DNA of 43,916 bases from a virus (lineage: Duplodnaviria; Caudoviricetes). The position numbers were made by a program, and so were the translations under genes. A model generated the notes under the pieces. That model was not told the origin of the DNA, made no database searches, and worked only from the letters and a program-made list of their open reading frames with translations. The stretch lies in the IMG/VR virus record IMGVR_UViG_3300014208_000068, positions 1 through 43,916 of that record; one strand, written 5' to 3'. Positions 1 to 23,421 of this stretch are shown here, piece after piece (within the stretch, counting starts at the first letter, position 1; every line of letters starts with the position of its first letter).

Positions 1-252
1 CATTGCTCCCCTTCGTCGTCTCCGTGCTTGCGGGGGCTGAGACGAGCAGAGCTTATCCGCAAGTCGGCCAGATCATGGCGGCGATGGACGCGGCTTAGCC
101 TTCTCGGTCGCCACCCATGCGCGTGCCCTTTCCAGGGCCGCCATGGCCTCTGTGGCGCATTTGGGACACCAGGGGGTGCCTCGGTCCCTCTCACTGAGGA
201 GCCACACTGCGGGGCACCCATGCTCGTGACAGAGCCTCGGCTAGCTCGATGG

Positions 253-2538: not shown

Positions 2539-2921
2539 GGTCCCTCCTTTTCGTCATCACCAGTGACGCACAGCACCTCCCACGCCACGAGCTGCTCCGG
2601 GAAGGCCGCATCGCAGTACTCGTCTGGGGGCAGCACCAGCTCTGGGTGCCAGGCATCGTGCACGAGCCCGTCGATCAGCGGGGCGCAGTGGTGCCCCCAC
2701 GTGTACCCGCGCAGGCCGCACGCCGGGCGGAGCCCATCGCGGTCGAGCGGGTCTACCCACAGGGCCTCGAGAGTGTGCCCGTGCGTGGGGCAGCAGGCCG
2801 CGACCTCGCCCATCAGCTCCACGCAGTCGGGCGCGGTGTCCGACGAGAGCAGCGACGCGAAGTCGACGCCGGTGTCGGCAATGTACTGAGTGGCGATGTT
2901 CGCAGCTACGTGCCTACCCAT
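2535..2921 (-). CDS. Hypothetical protein (Cys/His-rich)
   Basis: ATG at 2921 behind GAGGAGGT RBS; its stop overlaps the next start (GTGA). Confidence 0.7.
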   Translation of the reverse strand: MGRHVAANIATQYIADTGVDFASLLSSDTAPDCVELMGEVAACCPTHGHTLEALWVDPLDRDGLRPACGLRGYTWGHHCAPLIDGLVHDAWHPELVLPPDEYCDAAFPEQLVAWEVLCVTGDDEKEGP

Positions 2922-3153
2922 GGCCCACCTCCTCGCCTTCGGCGGCGCCAGTGGAGAGCGAATAGGTGGATGGCCTCTCGCCGTGTGGCTTACGCCTGAC
3001 TCGCCCGCTCGCGACGAGGCGCCGGAGCGCCCCGGCGACGCACGACGACGACGGCTCGCCAAGCGCATAGGCGATATCCCACGCCCGAAACTCTATCCCA
3101 GCAGGGAGATTCTCAAGCACCGAAATTACGGCTTCCTCTAAAACTCTACCCAT
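2914..3153 (-). CDS. Small winged-HTH-like protein
   Basis: RBS GGAGGT; pattern AWDIAYAL...VAGALRRLVASGRVRR...TYSL resembles a wHTH. Confidence 0.65.
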   Translation of the reverse strand: MGRVLEEAVISVLENLPAGIEFRAWDIAYALGEPSSSCVAGALRRLVASGRVRRKPHGERPSTYSLSTGAAEGEEVGHG

Positions 3154-3382
3154 GGTCCACCTCCCTGCGCCGGTTCTGTCTCTCCTCCCGCCACTCGCGC
3201 CACCGGGGGGAGATCTCGCGGACTTCTGCTTCTAGCCGCTCGACCTCGGCCTCTAGCGTGGTCACCCGCGCCTCGGCCTTTTCCGCCTTCGCACGCCACT
3301 CCTCGATGATGCGCTTGAGACGGCGCTCCTCGTGGGTGTCGTAGGTGTAGGCGTCCGACATCGACCCGCTATTTCCCCCCAT
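3146..3382 (-). CDS. Small coiled-coil hypothetical protein
   Basis: RBS GAGGAGGT before ATG 3382; heptad-like AEARVTTLEAEVERLEAEV. Confidence 0.65.
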   Translation of the reverse strand: MGGNSGSMSDAYTYDTHEERRLKRIIEEWRAKAEKAEARVTTLEAEVERLEAEVREISPRWREWREERQNRRREVDHG

Positions 3383-3695
3383 GGTCCACCTCCTCACCAA
3401 TGACCGACTTGCGCCCGGCCTCGAATGCCTCCCGAGTCATCGCTTCCCACCATTCCCCGCTTCTCTGTGCTCTCCCATCGTCGAGGCTCTCAACCCATGC
3501 CACGGCCACGGCGGCGACTTGCACAAGCTCATTGCGCAGCGCCGCAATGTCCCCCGTCATCGCCGCCCGAGCTTCTTCCCCGACCTCCTCCATCAGCACG
3601 AGGGACCAGAGGCCGGACCCAGGGTGCTTGTCCGCGCCCCACTTGAGATCCTGCCTCACCCTCTCCTTCTCGATTTCGAGTAGTTGCTTTCTCAC
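3369..3695 (-). CDS. MazG-like nucleotide pyrophosphohydrolase
   Basis: LVLMEEVGEEARA...LRNELVQVAAVAVAWVESLD matches the all-alpha MazG ExxE...ExxQ pattern. Confidence 0.75.
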   Translation of the reverse strand: MRKQLLEIEKERVRQDLKWGADKHPGSGLWSLVLMEEVGEEARAAMTGDIAALRNELVQVAAVAVAWVESLDDGRAQRSGEWWEAMTREAFEAGRKSVIGEEVDHGGK

Positions 3696-4261
3696 GATCT
3701 CTTCCTCCTATCCGAGGCGCCGTAGCTGAATCTCGGCGGCCTTCCTCGTTCGGTTGATTGCGACCCGCCACGGTAGCACGGGAGCAGGGCTTGCTCCGAC
3801 AGTCGAGGGCGGTACTTCGGGGCCGGTCCGCCGGACGGCAATGGCTCCTCCTCCGGCCGCATCGACACCGTGACCTCCCCGCCCGCTTTCAGTAGGGCCC
3901 GCTCCTCGATCTGCCTCACCCTCTCACGGGTGCAGTTCATGGCTTGCCCGGCCGCGTCGAGAGTCACCCCGCCACGGTCGGCCACATCAAGAGCGCAAGT
4001 CTCGCGCATCTGGTCGACAGATAGCAGTGGGAAGTTGTCCTTGAGCGTCCCCCTGTCCTCGTCGTACTTGAGATGGAATCGGCACGAGATCCATCGGCAC
4101 GGGCGTTGCGCGTTGATGCAATCGCCCCTCACCTTCGGGCGCTGCTTGTCGAGCGCGACGAGTAGCTGTGCCATGCTTTCGGACTCATCAAGCTCGGGGT
4201 CGACGGCGCGACTCTTCCCGTATGGTCGTCTGCGTTCTCCGCTCACAGTGGCATGCTCCAT
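3692..4261 (-). CDS. Cys-rich sigma70 region-4-like HTH DNA-binding protein
   Basis: TLDAAGQAMNCTRERVRQIEERAL (region 4 HTH) preceded by RGDC...RPCRWISCRFHL...ETCALDVA. Confidence 0.8.
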   Translation of the reverse strand: MEHATVSGERRRPYGKSRAVDPELDESESMAQLLVALDKQRPKVRGDCINAQRPCRWISCRFHLKYDEDRGTLKDNFPLLSVDQMRETCALDVADRGGVTLDAAGQAMNCTRERVRQIEERALLKAGGEVTVSMRPEEEPLPSGGPAPKYRPRLSEQALLPCYRGGSQSTERGRPPRFSYGASDRRKRS

Positions 4262-6165
4262 GTCACATCATCGCTACTCGGCTCGGTGCGAGAGCGATTG
4301 GTTTCGGGTTGTTGGTTCTGCGACTTGTCGAGGAATCGACCGCGCGGCTTGTCAAAGCTCAACTCCACGAGTCCCTCCCGCCCATATTCCATGCGGGTCT
4401 TGATTACGACAACCGCGGCCGGGTAGAGCCCGGTTGATTGGTCGCGCATGTCCTCTCGGTCGTTGGTCCGGGGTCGGTATACGCTGATGGCGTTGGCCGT
4501 GTCCTGAAAGACTTCCGTGTGTCCCTTGATGTCGCTCAACTGGGTTATCACGTCGTCCTTGTCCTTCGTCTTGGGTTTGTTCGCCGCGCTGTGAGCGAGC
4601 AAGAGCATGTGGGCGCCGGACCGTTGGATCGTCATCTGCGAATCCATCACGATTTGATCCTGTTGGTCCCATCGATCCTTGTCCGCGCGGCGAGTCATGA
4701 AATGGAGATGGTCGACAACCACGAAGTCAATGCCGAGGGACTTGATGCAATACTCCATCGTCGCCGCATACCTGCGACACTCAACAGCCCCAACGTGGTC
4801 AAAGAAAAACACGGAGCTGCGAATCTCCGCCAGGGCTTCCCTGACTCGACCCTCACCGTAGGTCTCGGGGTCTCCACCGAGGAGCTGTCTCACGAATCGA
4901 ATCGCCGCGAAGGTCGGGCCGCCCTCGAATGGGCAGACCAGGACTCGGCGTCCCTGCTGGGCTTGGTATAGCGCGGCCTGATAGGCCAGCGTTGTCTTGC
5001 CCGAGCCTGTTGGGCCTGTAACGATGGTGACCTCTCCCTGTCGCCAGCCCCCAAACAACTCATCGAGTCCGGCCCATCCAGTGGGCCACCCTCTTGGCTG
5101 GGCACCGAAGAGTTGTGAGAGGACGGACGCCTCAAGGTCTTTCGTTGAGACGATCTGCGACCCGGCCGGAGACTTCGCCTCTTCGATGATCCGCCCGACA
5201 GCACCCCAGTCGAGAGCGCCCGCGACGAGGGCGGCGTTCCCGTCCTTGTGCCCCTCTGGCCAGTGGCCAATCCTCACCCGGAAAGCGCCGATGGCTTCCG
5301 CTGCCTTCTTTGCCCCCGCCTCCCCGGCCGTGTCCGAGTCGTAGCAAAGCACGATGTCCTCGACGGCGCCGAGCTGTTCGGTGAAGGACTCCGACCACGA
5401 CCCCTCGCCATCAGGGATGGATACGGGGACGATCTCGAGCCACCTGGGACCGTCCGCCACCTCCAATAGCCTCGCCTCCCTGGCGGCCTCCAGAATCGAG
5501 AGGCAATCCATCTCCCCGCCGCAGACGAGCACCGTGCGCCCCTCCGGGATTCCGACGGGGGCATAGAGCGAGGACTTCCCTCCGGCCACACGGGCATATC
5601 GGATGGGCTTCCCCTTGTCGTCCTCGGGCTCGGGAGGCACCCACCGGAGCTTCACGAGCGTGGCATCGTCGCCCGTGAAGTAGGGGATGGCGACCATCCC
5701 ATTGCCCACCACTTGCCCGGCCCGTGTGTCCCCTGGGTGTCGAGGAGCCCATCCGAGGCAGGCCAGGTCGATGACGAGTCGCGAGAATCCGCGCTCGGCC
5801 AGGTAGTCACGAGTCGCGGCGGCCCCGGCGTGGTTGGACGACCAGAGCACCTCGTTCCACCGCCGGAAGTCCACCGTTTCCTTGGCCTGAAATGGGCGGG
5901 CGGCGTTCCTGGCCTCGTGGGTTGTGGGTTGCGCCGGGGCCTGGACTTGGTATGCGAGCCCAAGCAGGCAGCGGAGTTGATAGAGGTTCCCATGCTTTCC
6001 GCACGAGGCTCGGAGGCACCCCCACAACCCCGTTTTGAGGTTCAGCCCGAAGCCCTCATCATTCGCACAGCACGGGCACGGAAAGCGGGCCTCCTTCCCG
6101 CCGTTGAGGGGTCGCCACGTGATGCCTGCTTCGCGGAGAGTTTCTTGCGGGCTCGAATCCATCAT
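4243..6165 (-). CDS. Primase-helicase (Zn finger + Toprim + DnaB-like SF4 helicase; T7 gp4/Twinkle-like)
   Basis: CPCC...C...C Zn finger; GGEMDCLS and YDSDTAG Toprim motifs; Walker A GPTGSGKTT; VVVDHLH. Start at ATG 6165 overlaps the upstream stop. Confidence 0.92.
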   Translation of the reverse strand: MMDSSPQETLREAGITWRPLNGGKEARFPCPCCANDEGFGLNLKTGLWGCLRASCGKHGNLYQLRCLLGLAYQVQAPAQPTTHEARNAARPFQAKETVDFRRWNEVLWSSNHAGAAATRDYLAERGFSRLVIDLACLGWAPRHPGDTRAGQVVGNGMVAIPYFTGDDATLVKLRWVPPEPEDDKGKPIRYARVAGGKSSLYAPVGIPEGRTVLVCGGEMDCLSILEAAREARLLEVADGPRWLEIVPVSIPDGEGSWSESFTEQLGAVEDIVLCYDSDTAGEAGAKKAAEAIGAFRVRIGHWPEGHKDGNAALVAGALDWGAVGRIIEEAKSPAGSQIVSTKDLEASVLSQLFGAQPRGWPTGWAGLDELFGGWRQGEVTIVTGPTGSGKTTLAYQAALYQAQQGRRVLVCPFEGGPTFAAIRFVRQLLGGDPETYGEGRVREALAEIRSSVFFFDHVGAVECRRYAATMEYCIKSLGIDFVVVDHLHFMTRRADKDRWDQQDQIVMDSQMTIQRSGAHMLLLAHSAANKPKTKDKDDVITQLSDIKGHTEVFQDTANAISVYRPRTNDREDMRDQSTGLYPAAVVVIKTRMEYGREGLVELSFDKPRGRFLDKSQNQQPETNRSRTEPSSDDVTWSMPL

Positions 6166-6725
6166 CCACCCAATCCCTTGATGCGGTCTCTGAGTGTCTG
6201 TCGCCGCACCGTGTCTTGCTCTGCTGCCCTTTCGAGGAACCTTTCCACATGGTCCCTGGTCCGGCACACAAGCTCGATGTCGTTGTATCGCGTGGCCCCC
6301 GGCGTTGGGTCGTTGTAGAACGGGTCGGCCAGCATCGCGTCCGTGGCCGCGCAGAGTTGCTCGACGGTGAATCCCTCTCCGAGTCTGCAACGAATCTTCT
6401 CGATGCGCTTCGGGGAGAGCTTCACGATGCTCGTCTTTCCACAGGCAAAGTGCCAGTGGTCGAATACCGCCCGCACCGAGTCCATGTCGGCCGATGCGGC
6501 GAAAGTCGCAAGCCGCACGTCCAAGCAGGTCGAGGTCACCGTCATCCGCAGCTTCTTCCCGGCCAGGGCGGAGATGCCTTCGACGGTTCTCATCAGACAC
6601 TCCCCGGGCTCGAGTGCTAGCAGCACCTTCGCGGATTCGAGGGGGATGCGAGCCATGCCCCCCTCCGAGGCGGCGAGGTAGTAGAGCAGGCGTCCCCTCA
6701 GTAGGGATAGCGATTCTGGGCGCAC
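6162..6725 (-). CDS. Hypothetical replication-associated protein
   Basis: Translationally coupled to the primase-helicase; helical C-terminal region resembles phage replication-initiator tails (weak). Confidence 0.6.
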   Translation of the reverse strand: MRPESLSLLRGRLLYYLAASEGGMARIPLESAKVLLALEPGECLMRTVEGISALAGKKLRMTVTSTCLDVRLATFAASADMDSVRAVFDHWHFACGKTSIVKLSPKRIEKIRCRLGEGFTVEQLCAATDAMLADPFYNDPTPGATRYNDIELVCRTRDHVERFLERAAEQDTVRRQTLRDRIKGLGG

Positions 6726-6810
6726 AGTGCCTCCTTTGCGCTATCCGAGGCTGTCCCGGCTGTCAGGGCCAGTGGTCAGCCTCGGATGCGTCCACGGGGC
6801 GTCCAGGGCC

Positions 6811-7377
6811 CTAGAATGGGATGTTCGGGTCGGGCTTGTCGGCCTTCTTTGCTTTCGCCCTCGGGGCCGCCTTGGCCTTCGGGGCTTCGTACGTGTCCGG
6901 ACCAATCCGGTTGCCGTCCCAATCCTCAATCGCGTCCTCGGGGAGGGCGGGAGTTTCCGCCCACTCGATGGATTGCTCGGAGTCGAGAGCGGCGAAGGTG
7001 ACGGACCGAACCTGGACGAATGGCCGCCCGTCGTGTCCCTGGGTCGTCTCGTTCGTCGTCTCGACCTGGAGCACCTTGCCGAGCAGATGGGTGGTCACGC
7101 TGGACTGGTCGAAGGGGTCCAACCCGTTCGGGTCATCCGCAGCACCCACTACGCCGATGCTGTCGCAGAGGGTGACGAGGCGCCCGAACCCGAAGCGGGA
7201 AGCCTCGAGCACGATGAAATCCCGCCACGTCAACTTGCCGCCGCAGATCGAGAACCGCAGCGAGAGCATAGGTTTGCCTGTCTTGCTCTCGCCCACGATG
7301 GCGCGGGTGATCTGCGCCGCATGGAGTCCGGGGGCGAGGGTGAAGTTGTAGTCCGCTTTCGTCGAGAAACTTGCCAT
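6811..7377 (-). CDS. SSB-like protein (DUF669-like)
   Basis: LAPGLHAAQIT...SKTGKPMLSLRF OB-fold-like N-terminus; acidic/Pro tail ending DPNIPF; follows an AAA_24 gene. Confidence 0.75.
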   Translation of the reverse strand: MASFSTKADYNFTLAPGLHAAQITRAIVGESKTGKPMLSLRFSICGGKLTWRDFIVLEASRFGFGRLVTLCDSIGVVGAADDPNGLDPFDQSSVTTHLLGKVLQVETTNETTQGHDGRPFVQVRSVTFAALDSEQSIEWAETPALPEDAIEDWDGNRIGPDTYEAPKAKAAPRAKAKKADKPDPNIPF

Positions 7378-7396
7378 TGGGAGTTGCTCCGATGTG

Positions 7397-7416
7397 CGTG
7401 GGCAAATTTGCCCACG
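7397..7416. promoter_or_regulatory. Perfect 20-bp palindrome CGTGGGCAAATTTGCCCACG (operator or RNA hairpin)
   Basis: Read directly; intergenic, just upstream of the SSB-like gene RBS. Confidence 0.5.
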
Positions 7417-7454
7417 TTGGTTGTGCCCGAGTTTGTTGGCCCCGGGCAATGTCT

Positions 7455-8339
7455 CTACTGCTTGCTCTTGACCTTCGCCTTCGGGGCCGGAGGGAGGATC
7501 GCCTTCCCTTCCCCCGCCTCACTCTCGCTGACGAGGGAGCCGCTGTCACCATCCCGAGAGGGGATGCCAGCCATGCCCGCGTTGATGCTCAGGAGGATGC
7601 TTCCCAGGGTCGTCTTGCCCGGCGTCCTCAAGTCCTGCATCACCACGTCGGGGAAGTCCGTGGTCGTCGGCGGGCGCTTCGTTACGAAGCCCGAGCCCGC
7701 GTTGAATGCGATGCCGTATTGGAAAGCCCCGCTGCGCTTGTGCGCGAATCCGACCGCACTGAAGTACTGCCCAACCTTCTCCGCCATCTTCCCGTAGAGG
7801 TCGGGGATGGTGCGCCGCGCTTCGCCCTCCGACCCGCCCAGAGTGGATTGGAGGCAGATGCATACCACGTTGACGGGCAAGCTGCGGAGCCGTTGGAGGA
7901 GCGATGCAAGGAGCTTCTGTGCCTCACCCCATCGCTTCATCACGAGCTTTTCGACCTCGTCGACCTTCACATGCTCGGCAATGCGGGTGTGCATGTCCGA
8001 GAGGGAGTCGATGACGATGGTTTGGCAGGTGTACTCGGTCCCGCTCCTGTCGCAGAACCGAAACGCCATCTGCCCGTTGTCGAGCTTCACCGAAGCGCCC
8101 TTGGACAGTGCGTCCATGATGCGTTCCATGGATTCGTAGTTGTTGATGAGGAAGACCTCGGCGTCAGGCGCCGCGACGGCAATCGAGGGGATTGCCTGGC
8201 GCTCGGTCGCGAGGATGATGGGCATTGGGGACCGGGCGGCCCAGCTTGTCTTTCCCGTCCCACTGTCGCCGTAGACCAGGACCTTCAGCCACGGCTCGGC
8301 TTGCAGTAGTTCACTTGCTTTCACGTTCTCCTCCAACAA
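7455..8339 (-). CDS. AAA_24 / Sak4-like P-loop ATPase (recombination)
   Basis: LVYGDSGTGKTSWA Walker A; TIVIDSLS Walker B; lies between a nuclease and an SSB. Confidence 0.85.
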   Translation of the reverse strand: MLEENVKASELLQAEPWLKVLVYGDSGTGKTSWAARSPMPIILATERQAIPSIAVAAPDAEVFLINNYESMERIMDALSKGASVKLDNGQMAFRFCDRSGTEYTCQTIVIDSLSDMHTRIAEHVKVDEVEKLVMKRWGEAQKLLASLLQRLRSLPVNVVCICLQSTLGGSEGEARRTIPDLYGKMAEKVGQYFSAVGFAHKRSGAFQYGIAFNAGSGFVTKRPPTTTDFPDVVMQDLRTPGKTTLGSILLSINAGMAGIPSRDGDSGSLVSESEAGEGKAILPPAPKAKVKSKQ

Positions 8340-8502
8340 TGTAGATGCCAGGATAGTTGCCGTAGGTGAGTGTCACGAATCCCTTTCTTTCGCTATTGCC
8401 ACATTCCACACTGGGACGTGGCTCGATGCTTATTCTCTCTACAGTCTCCTTGACCCATTCAAGGTCATCTGGGTGGACGGTGATGATCTCAAGGATTCTC
8501 AC
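8311..8502 (-). CDS. Small hypothetical protein
   Basis: GTG at 8502 fills the gap between coupled genes. Confidence 0.5.
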   Translation of the reverse strand: MRILEIITVHPDDLEWVKETVERISIEPRPSVECGNSERKGFVTLTYGNYPGIYIVGGERESK

Positions 8503-9652
8503 GGAGATTCTCCTTGCACGTGAATGCCGATGCCGCCTCCGGGGAGGGGAAGCGGCACAGATCCATGTACTCACACCTTCGCCCGTAGGCATAGCACCCC
8601 GAGGCGTTGCGGGGGAAGATGGCGCCGAGGGAAATGGCGGCTTTGGCGGTCTGTATGTGGTCGCCAGGGTTGACGAGCAACACCTTGCGATAATGGCTCA
8701 CCTTGTCATGGGCCAGACGAAGCTCCGATGCCACGACGTGTAACTCCCGCCCAACCCTCTCCACGTCGTTCCAGGCATCGCCCGAAAACCGAACCCACTC
8801 CCGCCGAAACAGTGTCGGCGTCAGATCGTCGCCGTGCAGTGAGTCGAGGTCGCCCCGGTAGTCCGCGAGATCCTGTCCAAGTCGGATCAACTCAGCCCGT
8901 AGCCAGGGCTCGGAAGCGTGACGAGGAAGACGAGCCGGGAGGCGCATTCGCTTCGTCGTCCGATCCTTGACGAGTTCCAGTGAACCCGGCGCCGGAGGAA
9001 CATCCTTGAGGGCTAGGTCGTAGACCACCCCGGCGGGCTTGATGGGCGGCTTGGCGCGACTGAGGAGATAGGCGTACGTTTCCGCCTGTGGGTTGTAGTG
9101 GGAATCCAACCAGGACGAGAGGGGGCGCGTTCGCCCGCTCGTCTTGTGCTCGATGATCCAGAACTGGCCGTCCTTGTCCTGGCAGAGCTTGTCGATGTGC
9201 CCGGCGAATCGGTTGTCTCTCGATGTGACATCCCGAGGGCTCGTCGTGCGGGCCTCCAGGGCAAGCTCTGTCGCGACGACCTTCAGATCCCCAACCTCGA
9301 CACGCCACTGTTCCTCGTAGCCCTTGCACATGGCGAGCAAGACCGACTCGGAATGCTCGGCGTCGTCCTCGTCGAATGCGGCCGGGGGATTGGTGGTCGA
9401 GAATCCGCCTGCGAGCTTCGCCCGTGCGGCGTCGACGCGGGCCCTTGCTACCCTCTGCACCGCATCCAGTCGATTCGCGGTTCCCTCCGCCATGGCGCCC
9501 CACCATGCATCCATGCACGCATGCCAGGCCCGCCCGAATGCGAGCGGGGCGGCTTCGTAGCTCGACATCAGGCCGAGCCCTTCAGAGAGGAGCCATAGGT
9601 GCCGGCATCGCCCCCACACTGCCCTTTCGCTATTTGTCGTTGCGTACTTCAC
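8489..9652 (-). CDS. PD-(D/E)XK nuclease (RecB/Cas4-like exonuclease)
   Basis: FAGHIDKL...IIEHKTS, QAETY, N-terminal Cys plus C-terminal C..C...C cluster; GTG start with GGAGG RBS. Confidence 0.85.
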   Translation of the reverse strand: MKYATTNSERAVWGRCRHLWLLSEGLGLMSSYEAAPLAFGRAWHACMDAWWGAMAEGTANRLDAVQRVARARVDAARAKLAGGFSTTNPPAAFDEDDAEHSESVLLAMCKGYEEQWRVEVGDLKVVATELALEARTTSPRDVTSRDNRFAGHIDKLCQDKDGQFWIIEHKTSGRTRPLSSWLDSHYNPQAETYAYLLSRAKPPIKPAGVVYDLALKDVPPAPGSLELVKDRTTKRMRLPARLPRHASEPWLRAELIRLGQDLADYRGDLDSLHGDDLTPTLFRREWVRFSGDAWNDVERVGRELHVVASELRLAHDKVSHYRKVLLVNPGDHIQTAKAAISLGAIFPRNASGCYAYGRRCEYMDLCRFPSPEAASAFTCKENLRENP

Positions 9653-9950
9653 TTGCCTCCTCCTTCGGGCTTGCGCCCGTGTCGATCGTCCAGGTCGGGG
9701 CACCGATGCCATCGACGCCAGCGAGGCGCACGAGGGAGGCCGCGAGTTGCAGCATGTTGTGCGCCATGCCCTGCACTTCCTCGGCATTCTCGCTGCCCCG
9801 TTCCGTGAGTCGACACGCGCGAGCCCTTTCGGTCGCGGCCATCGCGACGAGGTGGAATGCGCTTGCCGCAACCACGGCCGTCGCAGTGTCGGCAAACGGG
9901 AGTGTGAGTTCGATCAGCTCGATGAAACTGAGCAGGTCTTTCCTGGTCAT
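9630..9950 (-). CDS. Hypothetical protein
   Basis: ATG 9950 overlaps the upstream stop; RBS GAGGA. Confidence 0.6.
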   Translation of the reverse strand: MTRKDLLSFIELIELTLPFADTATAVVAASAFHLVAMAATERARACRLTERGSENAEEVQGMAHNMLQLAASLVRLAGVDGIGAPTWTIDTGASPKEEASEVRNDK

Positions 9951-10156
9951 CGCTTCCTCTGCTTGGCCGCCATTCTGGCGCCGTAGAGAGTCTCGTAGAT
10001 GCGGATGGTGCCGATGCACGTCTCAGGGCCAGGCACGAGAGCCCACTTGCCCGCGTGCTTGGCGATGTACGCCCCACCCGGGAGGCGCATCCCACGTGCC
10101 ATCAGGCGTTCCCTCCATTTCCTGTCTCGCTTCTGCGACCGAGTCTCACTTGCCAT
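9947..10156 (-). CDS. Small basic hypothetical protein
   Basis: RBS AAGGAG; coupled to its neighbours. Confidence 0.6.
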   Translation of the reverse strand: MASETRSQKRDRKWRERLMARGMRLPGGAYIAKHAGKWALVPGPETCIGTIRIYETLYGARMAAKQRKR

Positions 10157-11852
10157 GCTTCTTCTCCTTCGGTTCCTCGACGATGAAAAACAGACTCTTC
10201 TTTGCCCGCGTCAACGCCACATAGCGCAGGTTCTGCTCTTGCACCACTTGCCACGGTTGGCGCGCGTAGGGAAACGGTAGTAGGTCGGGCCGGAGAATCC
10301 ACACTCGATCCGCCTCGAGCCCTTTGGCTCGATGCACCGTCGAGAGCCACACTCCCGGGCGTTCGTCGGAAAAGAGATCCTCGATCTCGCGACGGAGCGC
10401 CTTGATGTTCGGCCTCGGTGCCTGCATTTCTGTCCCATCCTCGTACACGGCGCCGCGATAGTACGGATCTGGAACATGCCTTGCCATCATCCATTCGTGG
10501 AATGCCTTCAGGCACTCGGCCTGGTCGCCGATGGCTTGGATTGCGGGGTCGTCGTCGTCCCCGCCGTTCTTCTTCAGAATCCGCCGCACCCGCTCACTTT
10601 CCCATGCCTCGACTTGCGCGGGAAAGTCCCTGAATCGGAACCCTCGCTGTTTCTCGATATCGTCCAGGACATCGAGCAATGCTGCCCCAATATCCCGGCC
10701 GCGGACTCGGGCCGATACCCCCTTCGACAGCAGCTCGAAACAGAGGCGAATGAGTGGCGCCGTCGTTCGGCACAGCACCAGATCGCCATCCCCAACGAGG
10801 GTTCCAACCTCCACCCGTGGGATGCTTTCGATCTCTCCCTCCTTCGCCCACGGCGCCGGCTCAATCTCCGGTACGATGGTTCGCGCCATGTCCAGGTGCG
10901 ACGTTGGGCAACGATAGCAGATGTTGAGCGGGAGCCGTGCCGCGTTCGTCGTCTCGATGATTCGAGCGACGGATTCCGAGTCCGCCCCCGCGAATCCGTA
11001 GATGGCCTGCCTCACATCCCCGACGGCCAGGAATCGCCCGTTGCGGTACACACACGAGAGCGCGACGGAGAGTTGCGCCGGGCTTAGGTCTTGGCACTCG
11101 TCGCACAGAACCCACGAATACGAAAATGGCTTGGCCCCCAACACCACGCACGCCCAGAGCATGTCTGTGAAGTCGAGCGCCTCCCCCTTCCGCACCATCT
11201 CTAGCCCCTGTCGGAGGATTCGAGCGCATGCCCACCCGGCGAATCGGGCGAGGCCGATATCGAGGTCGATGCCGTGCCGGTCGACGATGGGGGCGATGCT
11301 TGCCTCGTAGTCGAATCCAGCGGACCCGGCGGGTAGCGGCTCCAGGTCGAGGCGGAGGAGGTCGACGATGCGGCGCAGGGCCTTGGCTGGCCAGTCCTTC
11401 TTGATGCTGGCTCGCTCGGATTCGAGGAGCGCCATTCCGCAGTCGCCATCAACGGCCTCCCGGAGGAGGTCGCGAATCAGCTTCAAGTACTTGCCGGACT
11501 CGACCTTCATGCTCCGGCCGCACTTGGCGCGCAAAGCCCGGAATCCCACGGAGTGAATCGTGCTCACATCGACGTTGAGCCCGATGAGTTTCTGACCAAG
11601 CTCATCGGCGATGTGCTTGTTGAAGGCCAAGAACACCCCGCGGCTCGGAAGCACGCGGGAGATAGCTTTGAGCGTCGAGGTCTTGCCCGAGCCAGCGACG
11701 GCGTTGACCACGCCGTTTCCCGAGCCGTCATAGACCCAATCGAGGATTGCTCGCTGGTAGGTCGAGAGGGGGTTGTCGTGCAAAACCCCTCGGTAACATC
11801 GCGGGTCGCCCGGATCGGCTTCCGGGGCCCGCGCTTGAGCGGTCGAGAACAT
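10146..11852 (-). CDS. UvrD/Rep-like SF1 helicase
   Basis: NAVAGSGKTST, LAFNK, DECQD, VGDVRQAIYGFAGA, STVHRAKGLEAD, YVALTRAK. Confidence 0.93.
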   Translation of the reverse strand: MFSTAQARAPEADPGDPRCYRGVLHDNPLSTYQRAILDWVYDGSGNGVVNAVAGSGKTSTLKAISRVLPSRGVFLAFNKHIADELGQKLIGLNVDVSTIHSVGFRALRAKCGRSMKVESGKYLKLIRDLLREAVDGDCGMALLESERASIKKDWPAKALRRIVDLLRLDLEPLPAGSAGFDYEASIAPIVDRHGIDLDIGLARFAGWACARILRQGLEMVRKGEALDFTDMLWACVVLGAKPFSYSWVLCDECQDLSPAQLSVALSCVYRNGRFLAVGDVRQAIYGFAGADSESVARIIETTNAARLPLNICYRCPTSHLDMARTIVPEIEPAPWAKEGEIESIPRVEVGTLVGDGDLVLCRTTAPLIRLCFELLSKGVSARVRGRDIGAALLDVLDDIEKQRGFRFRDFPAQVEAWESERVRRILKKNGGDDDDPAIQAIGDQAECLKAFHEWMMARHVPDPYYRGAVYEDGTEMQAPRPNIKALRREIEDLFSDERPGVWLSTVHRAKGLEADRVWILRPDLLPFPYARQPWQVVQEQNLRYVALTRAKKSLFFIVEEPKEKKHGK

Positions 11853-11854
11853 GG

Positions 11855-12700
11855 TTATTTGCTCCCCTTGAGTTGCGCGAGGATGGCTTGCGCTTCGGCC
11901 TCGTCGCGGAGGACGAGCATCCGCACACTTCCCTGCGAATTCTTGAAGTAGAATCTCTGTCCGCCGGCCTGGAGAATCCTCCTTTCGTAGCGCACGATTG
12001 CATCGTTCTTCTTCGTGCCACCGAGGAGGAAATCCATCCGCCAATTCCCGCCCCACCTATCATCCGAGAGCGCACCCACGTTGCCTCGATTCTGTCGGCG
12101 CCTCCTACGCCGGTTTCGGGCTTGGCGTTTCTCTCGTGCCTCGGGCGATTCGTCCGGCTCCGTGAGCCACCGATTCCGGGGGTGACGAGCTGCGACGGTG
12201 AGAGCGCGGCGGGCAAAGGCGATGTCGAGTTGCTCTCGACGCTCGGCCCCGATTGCCTCGCAAGCCTCGGTGGCGGCATCCTGGGCGGGCTCGTCAAAGG
12301 CATGCTTGAGCCAAGCCCCGAGGGCCTCGGGAGTCAGGTCGCGAGGGACCATCACGGTCCGCACGAGTTCCCCGTCCTCAACCTTCGTCGCCATCGTCTC
12401 GTCAGGCCCGGTGGCGTGGTCAACGGAGACGAAGCCGCACTCTTCCGGGCACACCTCCTCCCGCATACACCCGCCATGCTCGGGGCAGGGGATGGCGGGG
12501 AGCAGGTCCGCCTTCCCATGCGGGTGCGGGTCGACGGCGGCCCACAACCCGTCAGCCTTCGACACGAGACCATCGGCAAGCAACCGAGCCAGCTCCCGGC
12601 GCACGGAGGCGGGCGGAGCTTCGGTCATCGTGGCGATCTCGGTGGCGCTTGCCTTCACGTAGTTCAAGCAGGTCAGGATTCGTTCTCTGATGGTTCCCAT
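11855..12700 (-). CDS. HTH-containing hypothetical protein
   Basis: N-terminal wHTH-like SATEIATMTEAPPASVRRELARLLADGLV; RBS GAGAGGA before ATG 12700. Confidence 0.65.
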   Translation of the reverse strand: MGTIRERILTCLNYVKASATEIATMTEAPPASVRRELARLLADGLVSKADGLWAAVDPHPHGKADLLPAIPCPEHGGCMREEVCPEECGFVSVDHATGPDETMATKVEDGELVRTVMVPRDLTPEALGAWLKHAFDEPAQDAATEACEAIGAERREQLDIAFARRALTVAARHPRNRWLTEPDESPEAREKRQARNRRRRRRQNRGNVGALSDDRWGGNWRMDFLLGGTKKNDAIVRYERRILQAGGQRFYFKNSQGSVRMLVLRDEAEAQAILAQLKGSK

Positions 12701-12878
12701 CGTTCGTCCTCTCTGAGGAAATGGGCGAGGGGGTTTGGCGGCGCCCCTCGCCGTGTTTGCTGTCCCGCCCGACAGTACCGATTGCAGGGCCGTGGTGGCC
12801 CCTCTGCTGCGTCCGAGCGTCACCCCCGACAGAGAGGGCCGTCCCCTCCTCCTGTCGATTCTGGGGGCATTCTCGGGG

Positions 12879-14339
12879 CTAGGTCTTGATTGCGCTCGTC
12901 TTGATGTCCCACCCGAGATAATCCCGGGCCATCTCCACGAATAGCGCCGTCTGTTTGTGCATCGGGGTTTCGCGAACCGCGGACTGCAATACCTCGCCAG
13001 CCCTATCCCAGAGGGCCGCGCATTCGTCATCGTCCCTTGATTCGTCCACCGGTTCCGACTTGGGAGGGTTCGACTTGGGAGGCTTCGGCGGGGTGGGGAG
13101 CTTGCCCGTCGCCGCCACTTCACGCTGTTGCTCGGGAGGCAGGGCCGTCGCCTTCGCCCCGGTGGAGACCGCGACCTTGCCAGCGTTGACCGCCGCGACG
13201 AGCTCCGGGACGCCGTCCTTGCGGACCTTGTCGGCCGCATCGACCGAGCGACCGCTGACACCCAGGTCACGGGCCGCCAGATCTCGAGCCTGGGGTGCCC
13301 TTTCGGCCGGTTTGACTGCTTGAGGCAAGTTTGCCTCAAGCACTTCTCCCGAGCGATGTCCGGCCGCACTCTGCCTCTCGCGGGCAGCAGTTGCATAGAC
13401 CTCTTTGACGCTTGATGCCACCATCGCGCACTGACTCGGGGTCAGGTGCCGACGATGCAGATTCAGGGAGATGACAATGTGAATCAGGGCGGAGCGGTCA
13501 GCCTCGATCCAGCGGAAATAGATCCCGTCCTCGCCAGGCTTGGCGGCTTGGATTTCCTTGCGGAGGTCGGCGGCCCATCCGAGCATCAGCAGCACCTTCC
13601 ATCGGTTCCGGCCGTCGAGGAGGACGGGGCGGCCGGGGCGCTCGGGGTCGTTCCACAGTTGGAGAGGCTCCCGCATCCCATTGGCCTTGATGTCCATGGC
13701 CAGGCGGTTGAGCCCGGCCGCGTCGATCATGGGAAAGATGCTCGCGGCGGGGTGGACGACCATTGGGAAATACTCGGCCGCAGTCGCCTCGGGGGCGCAG
13801 TCGCCGGGCTCGTCCGCCGGGGGCGCAATCGGAGCAGGGGCGGGAGGCTCGGGAGCCGGGGCGACATCGGCGCAATCGCCGCAGTAGCGCTCGTCCTGTC
13901 GACCGCCGGGAGGGGCGATGAGGTCGCTCTCGGTGCCGTGCTTCCCGCATCCCGCGCACTTCAGGGGCTCGGGGGCGGGCTCGGGTTCGGTGGCTTCGAT
14001 GGGCAGCTCGGGAGCTGCTGCCTTGGCCTTGCGAGCCCGCTTCGGCTTCTCCGTCGGGGCTTCGGTGTGGGCCGTCTCAGTGGGGGGCAGCTCGGTGGCA
14101 GCGGGAGTGTCGAGTCCAAGCACCTCGGAGATGGTCGCGTCGCCGGAGATGGTGATTCGCCCGTCGTCCTTGGCGTTGATGGCCCAGTTGTGTTCTCGGT
14201 CGAGTTTCGACGGTGGCTCGGTGCCCAGAATCTCCAGGGCCTTCTTCCTGGCGCCTTCGATGTTCTCGTATTTGTACGTTTTGCGGTAGTCCTTCTCAGG
14301 GTCTCCAGTCTGGACATGAACGCGCACGGAAATGGTCAT
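12879..14339 (-). CDS. ParB/Srx-domain protein with N-terminal extension and Zn ribbon
   Basis: HPAASIFP...LAMDIKANGMREP...LLDGRNR...SLNLHRRHLT; CAGC...CGDC; HTH AARDLGVSGRSV. Confidence 0.85.
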   Translation of the reverse strand: MTISVRVHVQTGDPEKDYRKTYKYENIEGARKKALEILGTEPPSKLDREHNWAINAKDDGRITISGDATISEVLGLDTPAATELPPTETAHTEAPTEKPKRARKAKAAAPELPIEATEPEPAPEPLKCAGCGKHGTESDLIAPPGGRQDERYCGDCADVAPAPEPPAPAPIAPPADEPGDCAPEATAAEYFPMVVHPAASIFPMIDAAGLNRLAMDIKANGMREPLQLWNDPERPGRPVLLDGRNRWKVLLMLGWAADLRKEIQAAKPGEDGIYFRWIEADRSALIHIVISLNLHRRHLTPSQCAMVASSVKEVYATAARERQSAAGHRSGEVLEANLPQAVKPAERAPQARDLAARDLGVSGRSVDAADKVRKDGVPELVAAVNAGKVAVSTGAKATALPPEQQREVAATGKLPTPPKPPKSNPPKSEPVDESRDDDECAALWDRAGEVLQSAVRETPMHKQTALFVEMARDYLGWDIKTSAIKT

Positions 14340-14387
14340 TTGCGGCCTCGTTGTTGAGCCCGGAATCGTCCGGGCGGGTTGGAGCGA

Positions 14388-14463
14388 TGGGGCATCCGGG
14401 AATCGAACCCGGAGGCGTAGTGAAACCCTGCGGCCCGTATAGGCGCCCGACCGGTCATGCCCC
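14388..14463 (-). tRNA. tRNA-like element with canonical acceptor stem and T-arm but non-canonical D/anticodon region; identity undetermined
   Basis: GGGGCAT...ATGCCCC-A 7-bp acceptor stem plus discriminator; CCGGG-TTCGATT-CCCGG T-arm; 76 nt; no encoded CCA. Confidence 0.6.
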
Positions 14464-14471
14464 TCAAAAAT

Positions 14472-14687
14472 AGCTGTGAGCCAGGACTACTCGCGGGCTT
14501 TCGCCCCTTTCGCCTCCGACCGCGGCCCAGGGTGAGGATTGCCCCTCACTCGTCCGGCACTTTCGAGGCCGGCTCAACCGCTCGCGTCTTTCGCACGCCG
14601 ACATTTCGAGGGGGCCGTGTTCCGTGCGGGTCCCGTCCCCTCGCCGCGTCCTATGTCGCTATCCGAGCTGTCGCAGCGCTCTCAGCC
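14472..14687 (-). ncRNA. Candidate structured non-coding RNA
   Basis: Four GNRA-capped hairpins on the minus strand, nested helices and a closing helix; lies directly downstream of the leftward promoter; no credible ORF. Confidence 0.65.
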
Positions 14688-14701
14688 CCGCGACGAAAGC
14701 C

Positions 14702-14730
14702 ACTCTAGGCGCGACGGAAACTGATTGCAA
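14702..14730 (-). promoter_or_regulatory. Leftward sigma70-like promoter
   Basis: TTGCAA (14730-14725), 17 nt, TAGAGT (14707-14702), with a T-tract upstream. Confidence 0.65.
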
Positions 14731-14771
14731 GAGAAAAAAACACACCAAGCACACTTATTTTTCGTACATTG

Positions 14772-14800
14772 TTGACACTAGCGCAACGCTTCGGTATTTT
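14772..14800 (+). promoter_or_regulatory. Rightward sigma70-like promoter
   Basis: TTGACA (14772-14777), 17 nt, TATTTT (14795-14800) in an AT-rich island. Confidence 0.7.
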
Positions 14801-14917
14801 TGTTTCTGGTCCTACGTCCCGGCGCCAGTCGGGACCACAGGTCGCTCCGGGCATGCCGGGGGGCGGGCGCTCAGTGAGCTGTCAGCCCCCCTCCGGCGCT
14901 CAATCGGGAGATACATC

Positions 14918-15256
14918 GTGCGAATCGACAGGCAGGCGCTCAAATTTCGCCTTCACGAAGTCCGCTATCTCGTCGCCCAAATCAACGCGGCCACGAGGAA
15001 GCTCGAATCCCTGGCTCTGGCCGATTCGAGGCTTACCGTCAAGCGCGACAAGGCCCGACCGGACTCGGCCCGATTCGCGACCGCCGATGCAGCACTTCGG
15101 TCGGCAAGGTCGCTCTGGCACCGTCAGAAGGGGAACATGGCGTTCCTCGTCGAGGAGCAGAACCGAGCGGAGTCGAGACTTTCCGCCGTTCATGATGGGT
15201 GGTTTGCGGCCGTCGAGTCCTACGAGGATTTCCTTACCAGGACGGAGGAGGAGTGA
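14918..15256 (+). CDS. Hypothetical helical protein (first gene of the right arm)
   Basis: GTG at 14918 with GGGAG RBS, downstream of the promoter. Confidence 0.6.
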   Translation: MRIDRQALKFRLHEVRYLVAQINAATRKLESLALADSRLTVKRDKARPDSARFATADAALRSARSLWHRQKGNMAFLVEEQNRAESRLSAVHDGWFAAVESYEDFLTRTEEE

Positions 15257-15439
15257 CCCTCACGCGCACACACGCGCTCTTCTCTTCTCCTGATCTTAAT
15301 TCCCAAGATCCAAAGTCCAGAGATACCCCTCCCCCCTGGGGGGGGGGGACGCATGCGAAGCATGCGAGAGGGGGGACAGGGAAGGTAATTAGGATCTCTT
15401 CTTTCTTGGTTCTTCTTTCTTCTCTGAGACACTAGGATC

Positions 15440-15805
15440 ATGATCTTGAATCTTTTAATCCCAATCCCCTCTCTCTCTCAGAACGTGTATCAGAGAATGC
15501 ATTGGTCTCAGCAGAAGAGACACAAGGACGATCTCTTCCTACTCCTGAAATCCTCCCTTCAGCTCAGAGGAGGAGAGAAGGTACTCCCTCCCCGATTCAC
15601 AGTCGTTGAAATCCAGATCACCCGGTACGGAGCAAAGAAGCTGGATCAGGGGAACCTCGTAGGGGGATGCAAGCCCCTTCTCGATGCCCTCAAGGACCTT
15701 GGAGCCATCACGGACGATAGCCCGAAGTGGCTCAAAGATACCTACGTCAACGAGGTCGACACCAAACACCAGCGGACAGAGATCCGCCTCACATGGAGCG
15801 CATGA
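15440..15805 (+). CDS. RusA-like Holliday junction resolvase
   Basis: LDQGNLVGGCKPLLDALKDLGAITDDS matches the RusA D..N..K...D...DD pattern. Confidence 0.75.
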   Translation: MILNLLIPIPSLSQNVYQRMHWSQQKRHKDDLFLLLKSSLQLRGGEKVLPPRFTVVEIQITRYGAKKLDQGNLVGGCKPLLDALKDLGAITDDSPKWLKDTYVNEVDTKHQRTEIRLTWSA

Positions 15806-21535: not shown

Positions 21536-22105
21536 ATGAAGATCCATAAGGTACCCATCTCCTCCCTGACATCCGACCCACGGAACGCCCGCCAGCACGG
21601 GCAACGCAACCTCGCCGTGCTGCGCTCATCCCTGACCCGCTTCGGACAACGCCGCCCGGTCGTTGTCGTCAAGTCCACGCGTCGAGTCATCGCAGGCAAC
21701 GGGCTGTTGCGGGCAGCGACGGATCTGGGGTGGGAGAGCATCGAGGCGATCTTCGTCGAGGACAACGAGTCAGAAGCGAAGGCTTTCGCCCTGGTCGACA
21801 ACCGCAGCGCCGAGCTGTCACTATGGGATGACGTGGAGCTTGGGGAGCAATTGGCCGAGTTGCGTGGCGGGGATTGGCCAGTCGAGGATCTGGGATGGTC
21901 CAGGGCCGACTATGACGCGCTGTGCAAGTCCGAGGAAGACCCACTTCCTCCCGAGGATGACATGGACATGCCCGACCGCGACAAGCCGATCATGGTGAAG
22001 CTCGCCATCCCGGCCGAAGTCTGGACGGTGAAGAAAGACGAGATTGACAAGGCCCTGTCCAGGTTCTGCAAGGTGTTCTCGTCAACCAAGACGGTGAAGG
22101 CATGA
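21536..22105 (+). CDS. ParB/Srx N-terminal domain protein
   Basis: DPRNARQH...SLTRFGQRRPVVV...VIAGNGLLRAA...ALVDNRSAELSLWD. Confidence 0.88.
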   Translation: MKIHKVPISSLTSDPRNARQHGQRNLAVLRSSLTRFGQRRPVVVVKSTRRVIAGNGLLRAATDLGWESIEAIFVEDNESEAKAFALVDNRSAELSLWDDVELGEQLAELRGGDWPVEDLGWSRADYDALCKSEEDPLPPEDDMDMPDRDKPIMVKLAIPAEVWTVKKDEIDKALSRFCKVFSSTKTVKA

Positions 22106-23421
22106 AGATCGGCACGACACAGCTCGGCTACGAGGCAACCAACTCCTACGGGATGCACTCTGCGTTGCGAGACTTGCCTGGGCTCGTCAACGTGAGTGAG
22201 AAGACAGCCAAGGCCTGCGACGTGTTGCTCGTCTCTCTGTTCTGGTGGTTGCACGTCTGGGAGTTGCCACAGTGGCTCAGGCGGGCCGGAATCCTGCGCC
22301 CCGATGGCTCGAGAGTGGGGCCGAAAATCTACGTCGGCGGGTTCCAGACCTTCAACCCACTCCCGATCCTGCCCTACGTCGATGGCGTTCTCGTTGGCGA
22401 CGGCGAGGGAATCCGCAGCATCGAGGACCTGCAATCCCTTTGCTACACGGGGGAAGGGTCGGTCGACTATCGCTCGGTGAACCCGGTGCCCTCGTTCTCG
22501 CACCGAGTCCGCACGGGCACCCGCATCGAGATTGCCCGAGGATGCAAGCGCCGCTGTGCATTCTGTGCGGTGTCGCATCTGAAGCCATATCGCGAGGTGG
22601 ACTTTGACGAGGTCAAGCGTCACGTTCGCGAGTCGAGCGGGCCCGTGATGTTGTTCGCCCCAAGCACGTCGCAATACTCCAGGAAGGACGAGCTCGAGGA
22701 CTTGATTGCCAAGCTCGGCATCGTGCGGGCTGACACGGATGTCTGTTTCGAGGAGCTTGGGAAGCGAGAGCGAGGATGGGCGCAGAGGTTCGGGCTCGAT
22801 GGGCTATCAGAGAAGCTGCGCAAGTCGGTCAACAAGCCACTGAAAAACAAGGCCCTCGTTGACCGCGTGGCCGAGATGCTCTCAGCGAAGGGACGACTTG
22901 CTCTGTACTACTACCTGATCGTCGACCTTCCTGGAGAATGGCAAGACGACTGGGATGAATACCGCGAGATGGTACTTGCTCTGTGCCATCTTCCTGGGGC
23001 AGAGGGGTTGCACGTCAACCCGATCTGCTCGGCGTTCATGCCGATCCCGCACACCAAGCTGGAGGGGGCCGGGATCAACCTGGACTTCCCGATTGTCGAG
23101 CGTCTCCGTCTGGCCTACGCCAACACGCCGAACGCCGCAATCGTCCACCGATTGCACCGCGTCTTGGCCTTCCATCCCGTCTCGCGCCTGCTCTCGATGA
23201 TTGCCGTCCGAGCTGGGCCGGAGTTCGTCGAGATAGAGGCCGCTGCGCACGCCGCTAGGCTCGTTTGGTGGGGTACGGAGGGGCTGGAGTATGCTCGGAG
23301 CCTGACGCGCTGGGAGAGGCTCCTACGGCCCTGGGGCGGAGTCGAGCGCTACTGTGGTCCCCGGGAGGTCGGGGACATGCCCTGGAAGTGCGTTCGCGCC
23401 TATTCCGCGGGCTTGCTCTGA
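22102..23421 (+). CDS. Radical SAM enzyme with N-terminal B12-binding-like region
   Basis: IEIARGCKRRCAFC (CxxxCxxC, 22543-22566); upstream IYVGG...NPLP...DGVLVGDGE; SEKLRKSVNK. Confidence 0.88.
   Translation: MKIGTTQLGYEATNSYGMHSALRDLPGLVNVSEKTAKACDVLLVSLFWWLHVWELPQWLRRAGILRPDGSRVGPKIYVGGFQTFNPLPILPYVDGVLVGDGEGIRSIEDLQSLCYTGEGSVDYRSVNPVPSFSHRVRTGTRIEIARGCKRRCAFCAVSHLKPYREVDFDEVKRHVRESSGPVMLFAPSTSQYSRKDELEDLIAKLGIVRADTDVCFEELGKRERGWAQRFGLDGLSEKLRKSVNKPLKNKALVDRVAEMLSAKGRLALYYYLIVDLPGEWQDDWDEYREMVLALCHLPGAEGLHVNPICSAFMPIPHTKLEGAGINLDFPIVERLRLAYANTPNAAIVHRLHRVLAFHPVSRLLSMIAVRAGPEFVEIEAAAHAARLVWWGTEGLEYARSLTRWERLLRPWGGVERYCGPREVGDMPWKCVRAYSAGLL

What the first reader, a model, noticed from the sequence alone, without database searches (positions are those of the whole stretch)
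14472..14687. Candidate novel structured RNA (four GNRA hairpins, possible double pseudoknot) at the head of the early operon
Seen on the minus strand, starting about 15 nt after the promoter -10 box. A closing helix GGCUGAGAGC/GCUCACAGCU pairs 14687-14678 with 14481-14472 (one mismatch). CGACAU/AUGUCG (14658-14653 with 14604-14599) encloses CGAGGGG/CCCCUCG (14643-14637 with 14613-14607). Hairpins are capped by GAAA (14584-14598, 14554-14572, 14495-14506) and GCAA (14532-14549). The internal-loop strand AGGACGCGG (14652-14644) can pair with GUCCU (14487-14483) and CCGC (14525-14522), giving two potential pseudoknots. All four loops read GNRA on the same strand as the promoter, which argues against chance GC pairing. 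Established: GNRA loops and pseudoknots mark tertiary-folded RNAs, and large phage ncRNAs such as GOLLD and ROOL occur beside tRNAs. Inference: a ribozyme-like or regulatory RNA that I cannot assign to a known class.
Basis: partly seen in the sequence, partly recalled or inferred. Interest (0 to 1): 0.85.

Follow-up and report, generated by a model that had tools for sequence, protein, structure and literature searches.

The report
Orphan folded RNA heading phage operon
An uncultured groundwater phage carries a roughly 230-base non-coding stretch, matching no catalogued RNA family, between a predicted early promoter and a broken-looking tRNA copy; it likely folds into a multi-hairpin RNA that the host's tRNA-trimming enzyme would cut free, but its fold, its expression and its job are untested.

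Summary
The helices are in the sequence, and the stretch is non-coding, confirmed by a second study and absent from Rfam. GNRA-capped hairpins are enriched on this strand only (5 vs 0.64 expected, P 0.0005, 0 opposite). One near-identical variant shows a compensatory pair change (chance 2-3%).

Overall folding is no better than shuffles (z -0.5). The closing helix disappears if the RNA starts at the predicted start, 14694, where a strong 5' hairpin forms instead. Only two loops are clean GNRA caps, and one of the four is lost in the variant. The pseudoknot pairings are at chance level.

Downstream lies a tRNA-Glu-like element with intact acceptor and T arms. Best reading (0.40): an orphan structured RNA that RNase P would release from the early transcript. 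No distant homologue was found, so no family or covariation test was possible. The scan has no earlier look-alike on other DNA.

The parts
14702..14730 (-). Predicted sigma-70-type early promoter TTGCAA-17-TAGAGT, with an A/T-rich stretch upstream; start site predicted at 14695/14694
   Evidence: Sequence; 8 of 12 consensus letters, below the scan's threshold; start-site distance is general knowledge, recalled
14464..14694 (-). Candidate structured non-coding RNA, about 230 nt (revised bounds)
   Evidence: Non-coding; no Rfam match; GNRA hairpin excess; run X4 variant
14670..14694 (-).
   Evidence: -15.7 kcal/mol, z -3.85 and -4.41; pair probability 0.87-1.0
14599..14658 (-). Central arm: CGAGGGG/CCCCUCG (14643-14637/14613-14607) well predicted; outer helix CGACAU/AUGUCG weak and in competition
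   Evidence: Probability 0.87-0.98 for the inner helix, 0.02-0.3 for the outer
14584..14598 (-). Hairpin GCGU/ACGC with 7-nt loop; U-A pair is C-G in the X4 variant, loop letters vary
14554..14572 (-). Hairpin CCGGC/GCCGG capped by GAAA (GAGA in the X4 variant, still GNRA)
   Evidence: local z -2.6
14532..14549 (-). Hairpin GUGAGGG/UCCUCAC capped by GCAA; closing G-U is A-U in the X4 variant
   Evidence: Probability 0.9-0.99; local z -4.0
14483..14517 (-). 3' arm: GGGC-GAAA-GCCC hairpin under a possible loop-E (GAA/AGUA) element; GUCCU either closes this arm or pairs with AGGAC
   Evidence: Hairpin probability 0.98-1.0, loop-E stem 0.53, AGGAC pairing 0.08; the loop-E label is recalled
14468..14474 (-). 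3' strand GCUAUUU of the alternative closing helix with GGAUAGC (14664-14658); overlaps a U5 run
   Evidence: Probability 0.5-0.9
14388..14463 (-). tRNA-Glu-like element: 7-bp acceptor stem, 5-bp T stem with UUCGAUU loop, UUC in the anticodon-loop position, anticodon stem with two mismatches, no encoded CCA
   Evidence: Sequence; not called by ARAGORN at default; weak mascRNA-menRNA and tRNA-Sec matches, E 0.041 and 0.43; 47 of 89 columns shared with a phage tRNA-Glu in L228, which was picked by a pattern covering 23 positions
14358..14375 (-). 7-bp hairpin between the tRNA-like element and the first gene's ribosome-binding site
   Evidence: -14.1 kcal/mol, z -2.9
12879..14339 (-). First gene of the leftward operon: ParB-like protein; followed by helicase, exonuclease, Sak4-like and primase/helicase genes
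   Evidence: PHROGs; best relatives at most 45% identical over half the length
14772..14800 (+). Divergent promoter-like site TTGACA-17-TATTTT
   Evidence: 10 of 12

Best explanation
This is a non-coding stretch at the head of the phage's leftward DNA-replication operon that is likely transcribed from a predicted promoter and likely folds into a roughly 230-nt multi-hairpin RNA, which host RNase P would cut free at the neighbouring tRNA-like element so that it could act on its own, most likely as a protein-binding scaffold or decoy early in infection. Shown: non-coding sequence, the hairpins' complementarity, strand-specific GNRA excess, an intact acceptor stem and T arm next door, no Rfam family. 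Predicted: start at 14694, 5' hairpin, four to five capped arms around a core whose long-range pairing is unresolved (at most one crossing helix is needed). Inferred: RNase P cleavage before G14463 makes the RNA's 3' end; trimming behind the tRNA-like piece leaves the mRNA with the 14375-14358 hairpin at its 5' end; action in trans.
For: Non-coding in all six frames. Five GNRA-capped hairpins vs 0.64 expected and none on the other strand; the locus reaches the window maximum. A z -4 hairpin begins at the predicted start. In the only variant (run X4, 7 changes in 214 nt), both pairs of the well-predicted stems that are touched stay paired, one by a double change; one GNRA loop stays GNRA; a compensatory pair arises in 2-3% of random draws. 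The neighbour keeps the acceptor stem and T arm but not the anticodon stem. RNase P cuts non-tRNA substrates at tRNA-like structures, including phage-induced RNAs, and makes the MALAT1 3' end this way (PMC4919922, passages). ROOL and GOLLD are phage RNAs often near tRNA genes (PMC12286853, passages).
Against: Global folding z -0.48 to +0.2. The GNRA threshold was my choice; at -5 and -6 kcal/mol only 3 hairpins count and a site near 38733 scores higher; about 380 tiles of this size exist on the two strands, which erodes P 0.0005. No change falls in the 5' hairpin or any long-range helix. The promoter is only 8 of 12. No distant homologue was found. Nothing tests trans action.
Confidence: 0.4

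Rival explanations
1. A cis-acting leader that controls read-through into the more than 13-kb early operon, as an RNA antiterminator like HK022 put or as an attenuator switching between the helix that frees the U5 run and the one that buries it (GGAUAGC/GCUAUUU).
For: It sits at the predicted start of a long operon. Mutually exclusive folds exist around a U5 run. put RNA is cited as a protein-free early antitermination route (PMC12315714, passages; the mechanism itself is recalled).
Against: The terminator-like state costs 6.6 kcal/mol and has probability 0.0. Terminator-like sites in 1-15000 are not in excess (9 vs 9.9; 3 on the minus strand). put elements are recalled as about 70 nt with two stems, much smaller. 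It does not explain the tRNA-like neighbour.
Confidence: 0.2
2. A G+C-rich spacer or decayed RNA gene cluster with a few real local hairpins and no defined tertiary fold or function of its own.
For: Folding energy equals shuffles; long-range helices are at chance level or depend on where the RNA is cut; no homologue beyond one near-identical piece; the neighbouring tRNA looks decayed.
Against: Strand-specific GNRA excess, a z -4 hairpin at the predicted start and a compensatory change; 230 non-coding bases kept in a dense genome.
Confidence: 0.22
3. A ribozyme of an undescribed class that cuts or splices the early transcript, for example to make the 5' end of the tRNA-like piece.
For: Size, GNRA caps and a possible loop-E and pseudoknot are typical of catalytic RNAs (general knowledge). 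Theta ribozymes show that phages pair ribozymes with tRNAs (PMC10879173, passages).
Against: No Rfam ribozyme family matches at E up to 10. A loose HDV-like descriptor gives 27 weak hits, within the background of 0-37. Theta ribozymes are proposed for the 3' trailer, while this lies 5' of the tRNA-like piece, where RNase P suffices.
Confidence: 0.08
4. An antisense immunity or regulatory RNA system like P1 C4 or P4 CI, in which the tRNA-like piece is the RNase P-released regulator and the upstream stretch is its target leader (these systems are recalled, not read in detail).
For: RNase P-shaped cloverleaf at the head of an early operon.
Against: No Rfam C4-type match; the longest perfect antisense match of the tRNA-like piece in the window is 11 nt and none lies in the leader.
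Confidence: 0.07

Closest known systems
raiA motif RNA (Rfam RF03072; PMC10861870, PMC12968392)
   Same: About 200 nt, many stems, function unknown; an E-loop arm occurs in raiA and possibly here.
   Different: No match to RF03072 at E up to 10. raiA's PK1 uses the apical loop of P3b, and its closing P1 with GU and GGU bulges is highly conserved; here the candidate crossing strand is an internal-loop strand and the closing helix is uncertain. raiA is chromosomal in Bacillota and Actinomycetota.
GOLLD and ROOL RNAs (PMC12286853)
   Same: Structured phage RNAs of unknown function, often near tRNA genes.
   Different: GOLLD often exceeds 800 nt; no Rfam match here; the neighbour is one degenerate tRNA-like element, not a tRNA island.
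MALAT1/mascRNA and MEN-beta/menRNA processing (PMC4919922)
   Same: A tRNA-like piece behind a longer RNA could let RNase P make that RNA's 3' end; weak mascRNA-menRNA match, E 0.041.
   Different: Eukaryotic long RNAs with a triple-helix end (recalled); score 22.8 bits against a cut-off of 42.5; cleavage here is untested.
Theta (HDV-like) ribozymes (PMC10879173)
   Same: Phage RNA structure next to a tRNA gene.
   Different: Minimal ribozymes proposed to trim the 3' trailer; no HDV-like fold above background here.
HK022 put antiterminator RNA (named in PMC12315714; details recalled)
   Same: Position right behind an early promoter.
   Different: Recalled as two stems in about 70 nt; no sequence test was possible.

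Membership tests
Any Rfam 15 family | Match at the family's gathering score | tested here: not met
   0 matches in the window; at E up to 10 only a mir-1471 fragment (19.5 of 82 bits) touches the element
raiA motif RNA | Match to RF03072 | tested here: not met
   0 of 1 record at E up to 10
raiA motif RNA | PK1 between the P3b apical loop and the P5-P6 linker; conserved bulged P1 | tested here: not met
   Topology from PMC12968392 compared with the helix list; real raiA sequences were not on hand (supplement unreadable)
GOLLD / ROOL | Large size and match to their Rfam models | tested here: not met
   About 230 nt; no match
GOLLD / ROOL | Phage-encoded, near tRNA genes | tested here: inconclusive
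   Phage-encoded; the neighbour is tRNA-like but not called a tRNA
HDV-like / theta ribozymes | Nested double pseudoknot P1-P1.1-P2-P3-P4 with catalytic C | tested here: not met
   Loose descriptor written from recall: 27 weak, G-U-rich hits vs background 0-37
Self-cleaving or self-splicing ribozymes | Catalytic activity | not testable with these tools
   Needs an in vitro assay
tRNA (downstream element) | Acceptor stem and T arm | tested here: met
   7 of 7 and 5 of 5 pairs, UUCGAUU loop
tRNA (downstream element) | Paired D and anticodon arms, full cloverleaf | tested here: not met
   ARAGORN default 0 genes; a call appears only at a lowered threshold, among 22 noise-level calls and with a different fold; no RF00005 match
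tmRNA | ARAGORN or Rfam match, G3-U70 acceptor | tested here: not met
   the acceptor has G3-C70
put-type antiterminator | Promotes read-through by RNA polymerase in cis | not testable with these tools
   Needs transcription assays
Retron or TnpB/IscB guide RNA | Reverse transcriptase or RNA-guided nuclease gene alongside | tested here: inconclusive
   None among 58 ORFs scanned in PHROGs and 18 in Pfam; the record is about 45% complete

The most novel reading that the evidence does not exclude
The first example of a new class of tertiary-folded phage RNA of about 230 nt, with GNRA-capped arms, a loop-E arm and a pseudoknotted core, made first in infection and cut out of the early transcript by a tRNA-derived tag that has given up decoding, a phage counterpart of MALAT1/mascRNA processing; the freed RNA is catalytic or disarms a host protein.
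Probability: 0.2. Interest if true: 0.85.

Novelty: new variant of a known kind. Interest (0 to 1): 0.5.

Why it matters
Few large structured phage RNAs are known, and those near tRNA genes (GOLLD, ROOL) have no known job. A compact, uncatalogued one at the very start of an early operon would be easy to make and probe. If RNase P releases it through a decoding-dead tRNA tag, that offers a testable reason why phages keep broken-looking tRNA genes. For now it rests on one genome and one near-identical fragment.

Tried and rejected
Homologue hunting found nothing beyond the X4 fragment. Viral pattern scans: 119 loci (nhmmer best E 0.44; model R1 on 69 of them), 9 loci, 74 loci (R1 on 57; Rfam on 20 and on 7), 1 locus (a tRNA-Glu), 11 loci. 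The metagenome scan returned only the window's own contig, L144. The genome scan gave one chance match, L229. blastn of GenBank phages and plasmids: no match or only short pieces at E 0.3-9. Protein-led routes: ParB-like protein, 0 of 15 stretches confirmed; 23 terminase loci at 33-44% identity and 80 helicase loci at 32-46%, 44 of the 80 scanned with R1 and R2; 0 of 5 and 0 of 50 whole virus records; 0 of 401 genomes of one phylum chosen without knowing the host. The best weak hits (L137, L237, L240, L242) read as protein-coding or chance. Both models were built from one sequence, so they are weak detectors.

Expression: no RNA holder listed, which says nothing either way. Run X4's contig ends (14479 and 14692) fall near the predicted RNA ends and it is the only long near-identical X4 piece in 20 kb, but the run was found by these words, its kind is guessed as DNA and contigs cannot show RNA ends, so this is not counted as evidence.

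Rejected: protein coding; origin-type or tandem repeats; antisense target in the window; resemblances to raiA, tmRNA, FMN and TPP riboswitches noticed from memory (no Rfam support). My 'revised' pair model left out one pair after I had seen the variant, so its zero broken pairs (P 0.08-0.12) is not an independent test.

Literature: searches showed no description of this RNA. The alignments of the 10,006 viral candidates in PMC10690425 could not be searched (3 of 6 held files searched, no motif found), so presence there is not excluded.

Full report
Setting. The window is an uncultured tailed phage record, about 45% complete, with tail sheath, portal, capsid and terminase genes on the plus strand and ParB-like, helicase, exonuclease, Sak4-like and primase/helicase genes on the minus strand. 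The two runs that hold most of this stretch are groundwater metagenomes. The phage is isolated: best relatives are 45% (ParB-like, half the length), 47% (helicase) and 44% (terminase) identical. The finding lies in the gap between the two gene arms, beside back-to-back promoter-like sites.

What holds. Run X2, from another study, covers the stretch with no differences, so it is no assembly artefact. It does not code: all six frames score -0.14 to -0.22 on a codon model on which 11 training genes score +0.05 to +0.30 and 5 held-out genes +0.09 to +0.25, and the variant's changes are synonymous in only 1-2 of 5 codons in any frame. Rfam 15 has no family for it at gathering score or at E up to 10, apart from a mir-1471 fragment far below its cut-off. 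With a rule that allows bulges, 5 GNRA-capped hairpins reach -4 kcal/mol against 0.64 in 2000 shuffles (P 0.0005), with none on the other strand; the locus reaches the window maximum of 5, and two other places reach 4 or more. At -5 and -6 kcal/mol the count is 3 (P 0.008, 0.003) and a site near 38733 scores higher. The threshold was mine and about 380 such tiles exist, so this is support, not proof.

What fails. Only two of the four loops are GNRA tetraloops closed directly by four or more pairs (P 0.016). The closing helix depends on the cut point. A different closing helix, GGAUAGC/GCUAUUU, then has probability 0.5-0.9. The promoter itself is only 8 of 12 and is not listed by the scan, so the start is a prediction. 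The two 'pseudoknot' helices are nested with each other and with CGAGGGG/CCCCUCG; only CGACAU/AUGUCG crosses them. Such double partners are common here: 33 of 222 9-mers have them. GUCCU can instead close a GAA/AGUA loop-E-type arm (probability 0.53 vs 0.08 for the AGGAC pairing; the program cannot score pseudoknots).

The one variant. Run X4 (lake water, kind guessed as DNA) holds a 214-nt contig over 14479-14692 with 7 differences, at depth 2. On the RNA strand: U14595-A14587 becomes C-G; G14543-U14538 becomes A-U; GAAA at 14564-14561 becomes GAGA; three changes fall in the 7-nt loop of hairpin 14598-14584 and remove its GAAA cap. No change touches the 5' hairpin or a long-range helix, so these are untested. 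The tool warns that a difference in one contig under depth 5 may be an error.

The neighbour. 14463-14388 has a perfect 7-bp acceptor stem and 5-bp T stem with UUCGAUU, no encoded CCA, UUC in the anticodon-loop position and two mismatches in the anticodon stem. ARAGORN does not call it; Rfam gives weak mascRNA-menRNA and tRNA-Sec matches. It shares 47 of 89 columns with a phage tRNA-Glu in L228, which however was picked by a pattern fixing 23 positions. A 7-bp hairpin (z -2.9) follows, then the ParB-like gene.

Homologues. Five viral pattern scans, three protein-led viral scans, one metagenome and one genome scan, three blastn searches, five covariance-model searches of loci and five genome searches of other records gave no distant relative (counts under Tried and rejected). 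A family, and thus a covariation test, is lacking.

Mechanism. Shown: a non-coding, hairpin-rich stretch and a tRNA-like piece that keeps the acceptor and T arm. Inferred: one early transcript carries RNA, tRNA-like piece and mRNA. RNase P processes non-tRNA substrates at tRNA-like structures, among them phage-induced RNAs and the MALAT1 3' end (PMC4919922, passages), so a cut before G14463 would free a 230-nt RNA. I put this, with action in trans as a scaffold or decoy, at 0.40. Rivals: decayed spacer 0.22, cis-acting antiterminator or attenuator 0.20, ribozyme 0.08, antisense immunity system 0.07.

Known systems. It works, if at all, like the tRNA-adjacent orphan RNAs of phages (GOLLD, ROOL; PMC12286853, passages) with MALAT1-like end formation. 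It is not a member of GOLLD, ROOL, raiA (topology from PMC12968392, parts 1-3 of 6 read; PMC10861870, part 1 of 7 and passages), theta ribozymes (PMC10879173, passages) or tmRNA. PMC5499578 and PMC12315714 were seen as passages. PMC10690425 was seen as passages; its candidate alignments could not be searched, so the RNA may be among its 10,006 candidates, though near-absence of relatives in the same viral collection makes that unlikely.

Verdict. Probably a real, uncatalogued structured RNA with a different 5' end and a less ornate proven fold than proposed. Interest 0.5; the boldest reading has probability 0.2 and would merit 0.85.

Noticed in passing
window 14807-14917 (+): The divergent promoter-like site is also followed by a G+C-rich leader of about 110 nt with a hairpin at 14858-14893 (weak Pab160 match, E 0.06), then a likely gene 14918-15256 with a GGGAG ribosome-binding site.
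   Followed up: no
window 15280-15500: Non-coding stretch before the RusA-like gene with long C and G runs, a GCATGCG-AAG-CATGCG palindrome and purine/pyrimidine tracts; could be an origin or packaging site.
   Followed up: no
window near 38500-38733 (-): Another cluster of 4 or more GNRA-capped hairpins, antisense to the tail sheath gene.
   Followed up: no
window 14134-14393, run X3: A second relative (12 differences and a 1-base gap in about 260 nt, depth 2) covers the start of the ParB-like gene and stops inside the 3' end of the tRNA-like piece.
   Followed up: partly
L202 565-655 (+): Behind a tRNA cluster, a short structured stretch shares GGCGAAAG, GGCAAUCCUC and GCGAGUAGUC with this RNA in another order and ends in an A run; no Rfam match, no match to models R1 or R2.
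   Followed up: partly
L178 479-760 (+): Intergenic, strongly paired stretch of about 280 nt with several hairpins and a long helix; no Rfam match at E up to 0.5; possibly another uncatalogued RNA.
   Followed up: partly
L228 1000-1083 (+): Phage tRNA-Glu(UUC) with an unusual acceptor/T arrangement (possible 8-bp acceptor stem) and a long variable region.
   Followed up: partly
window 22102-23421 (+): Radical SAM protein next to a second ParB-like gene behind the terminase, perhaps a DNA-modification module.
   Followed up: no
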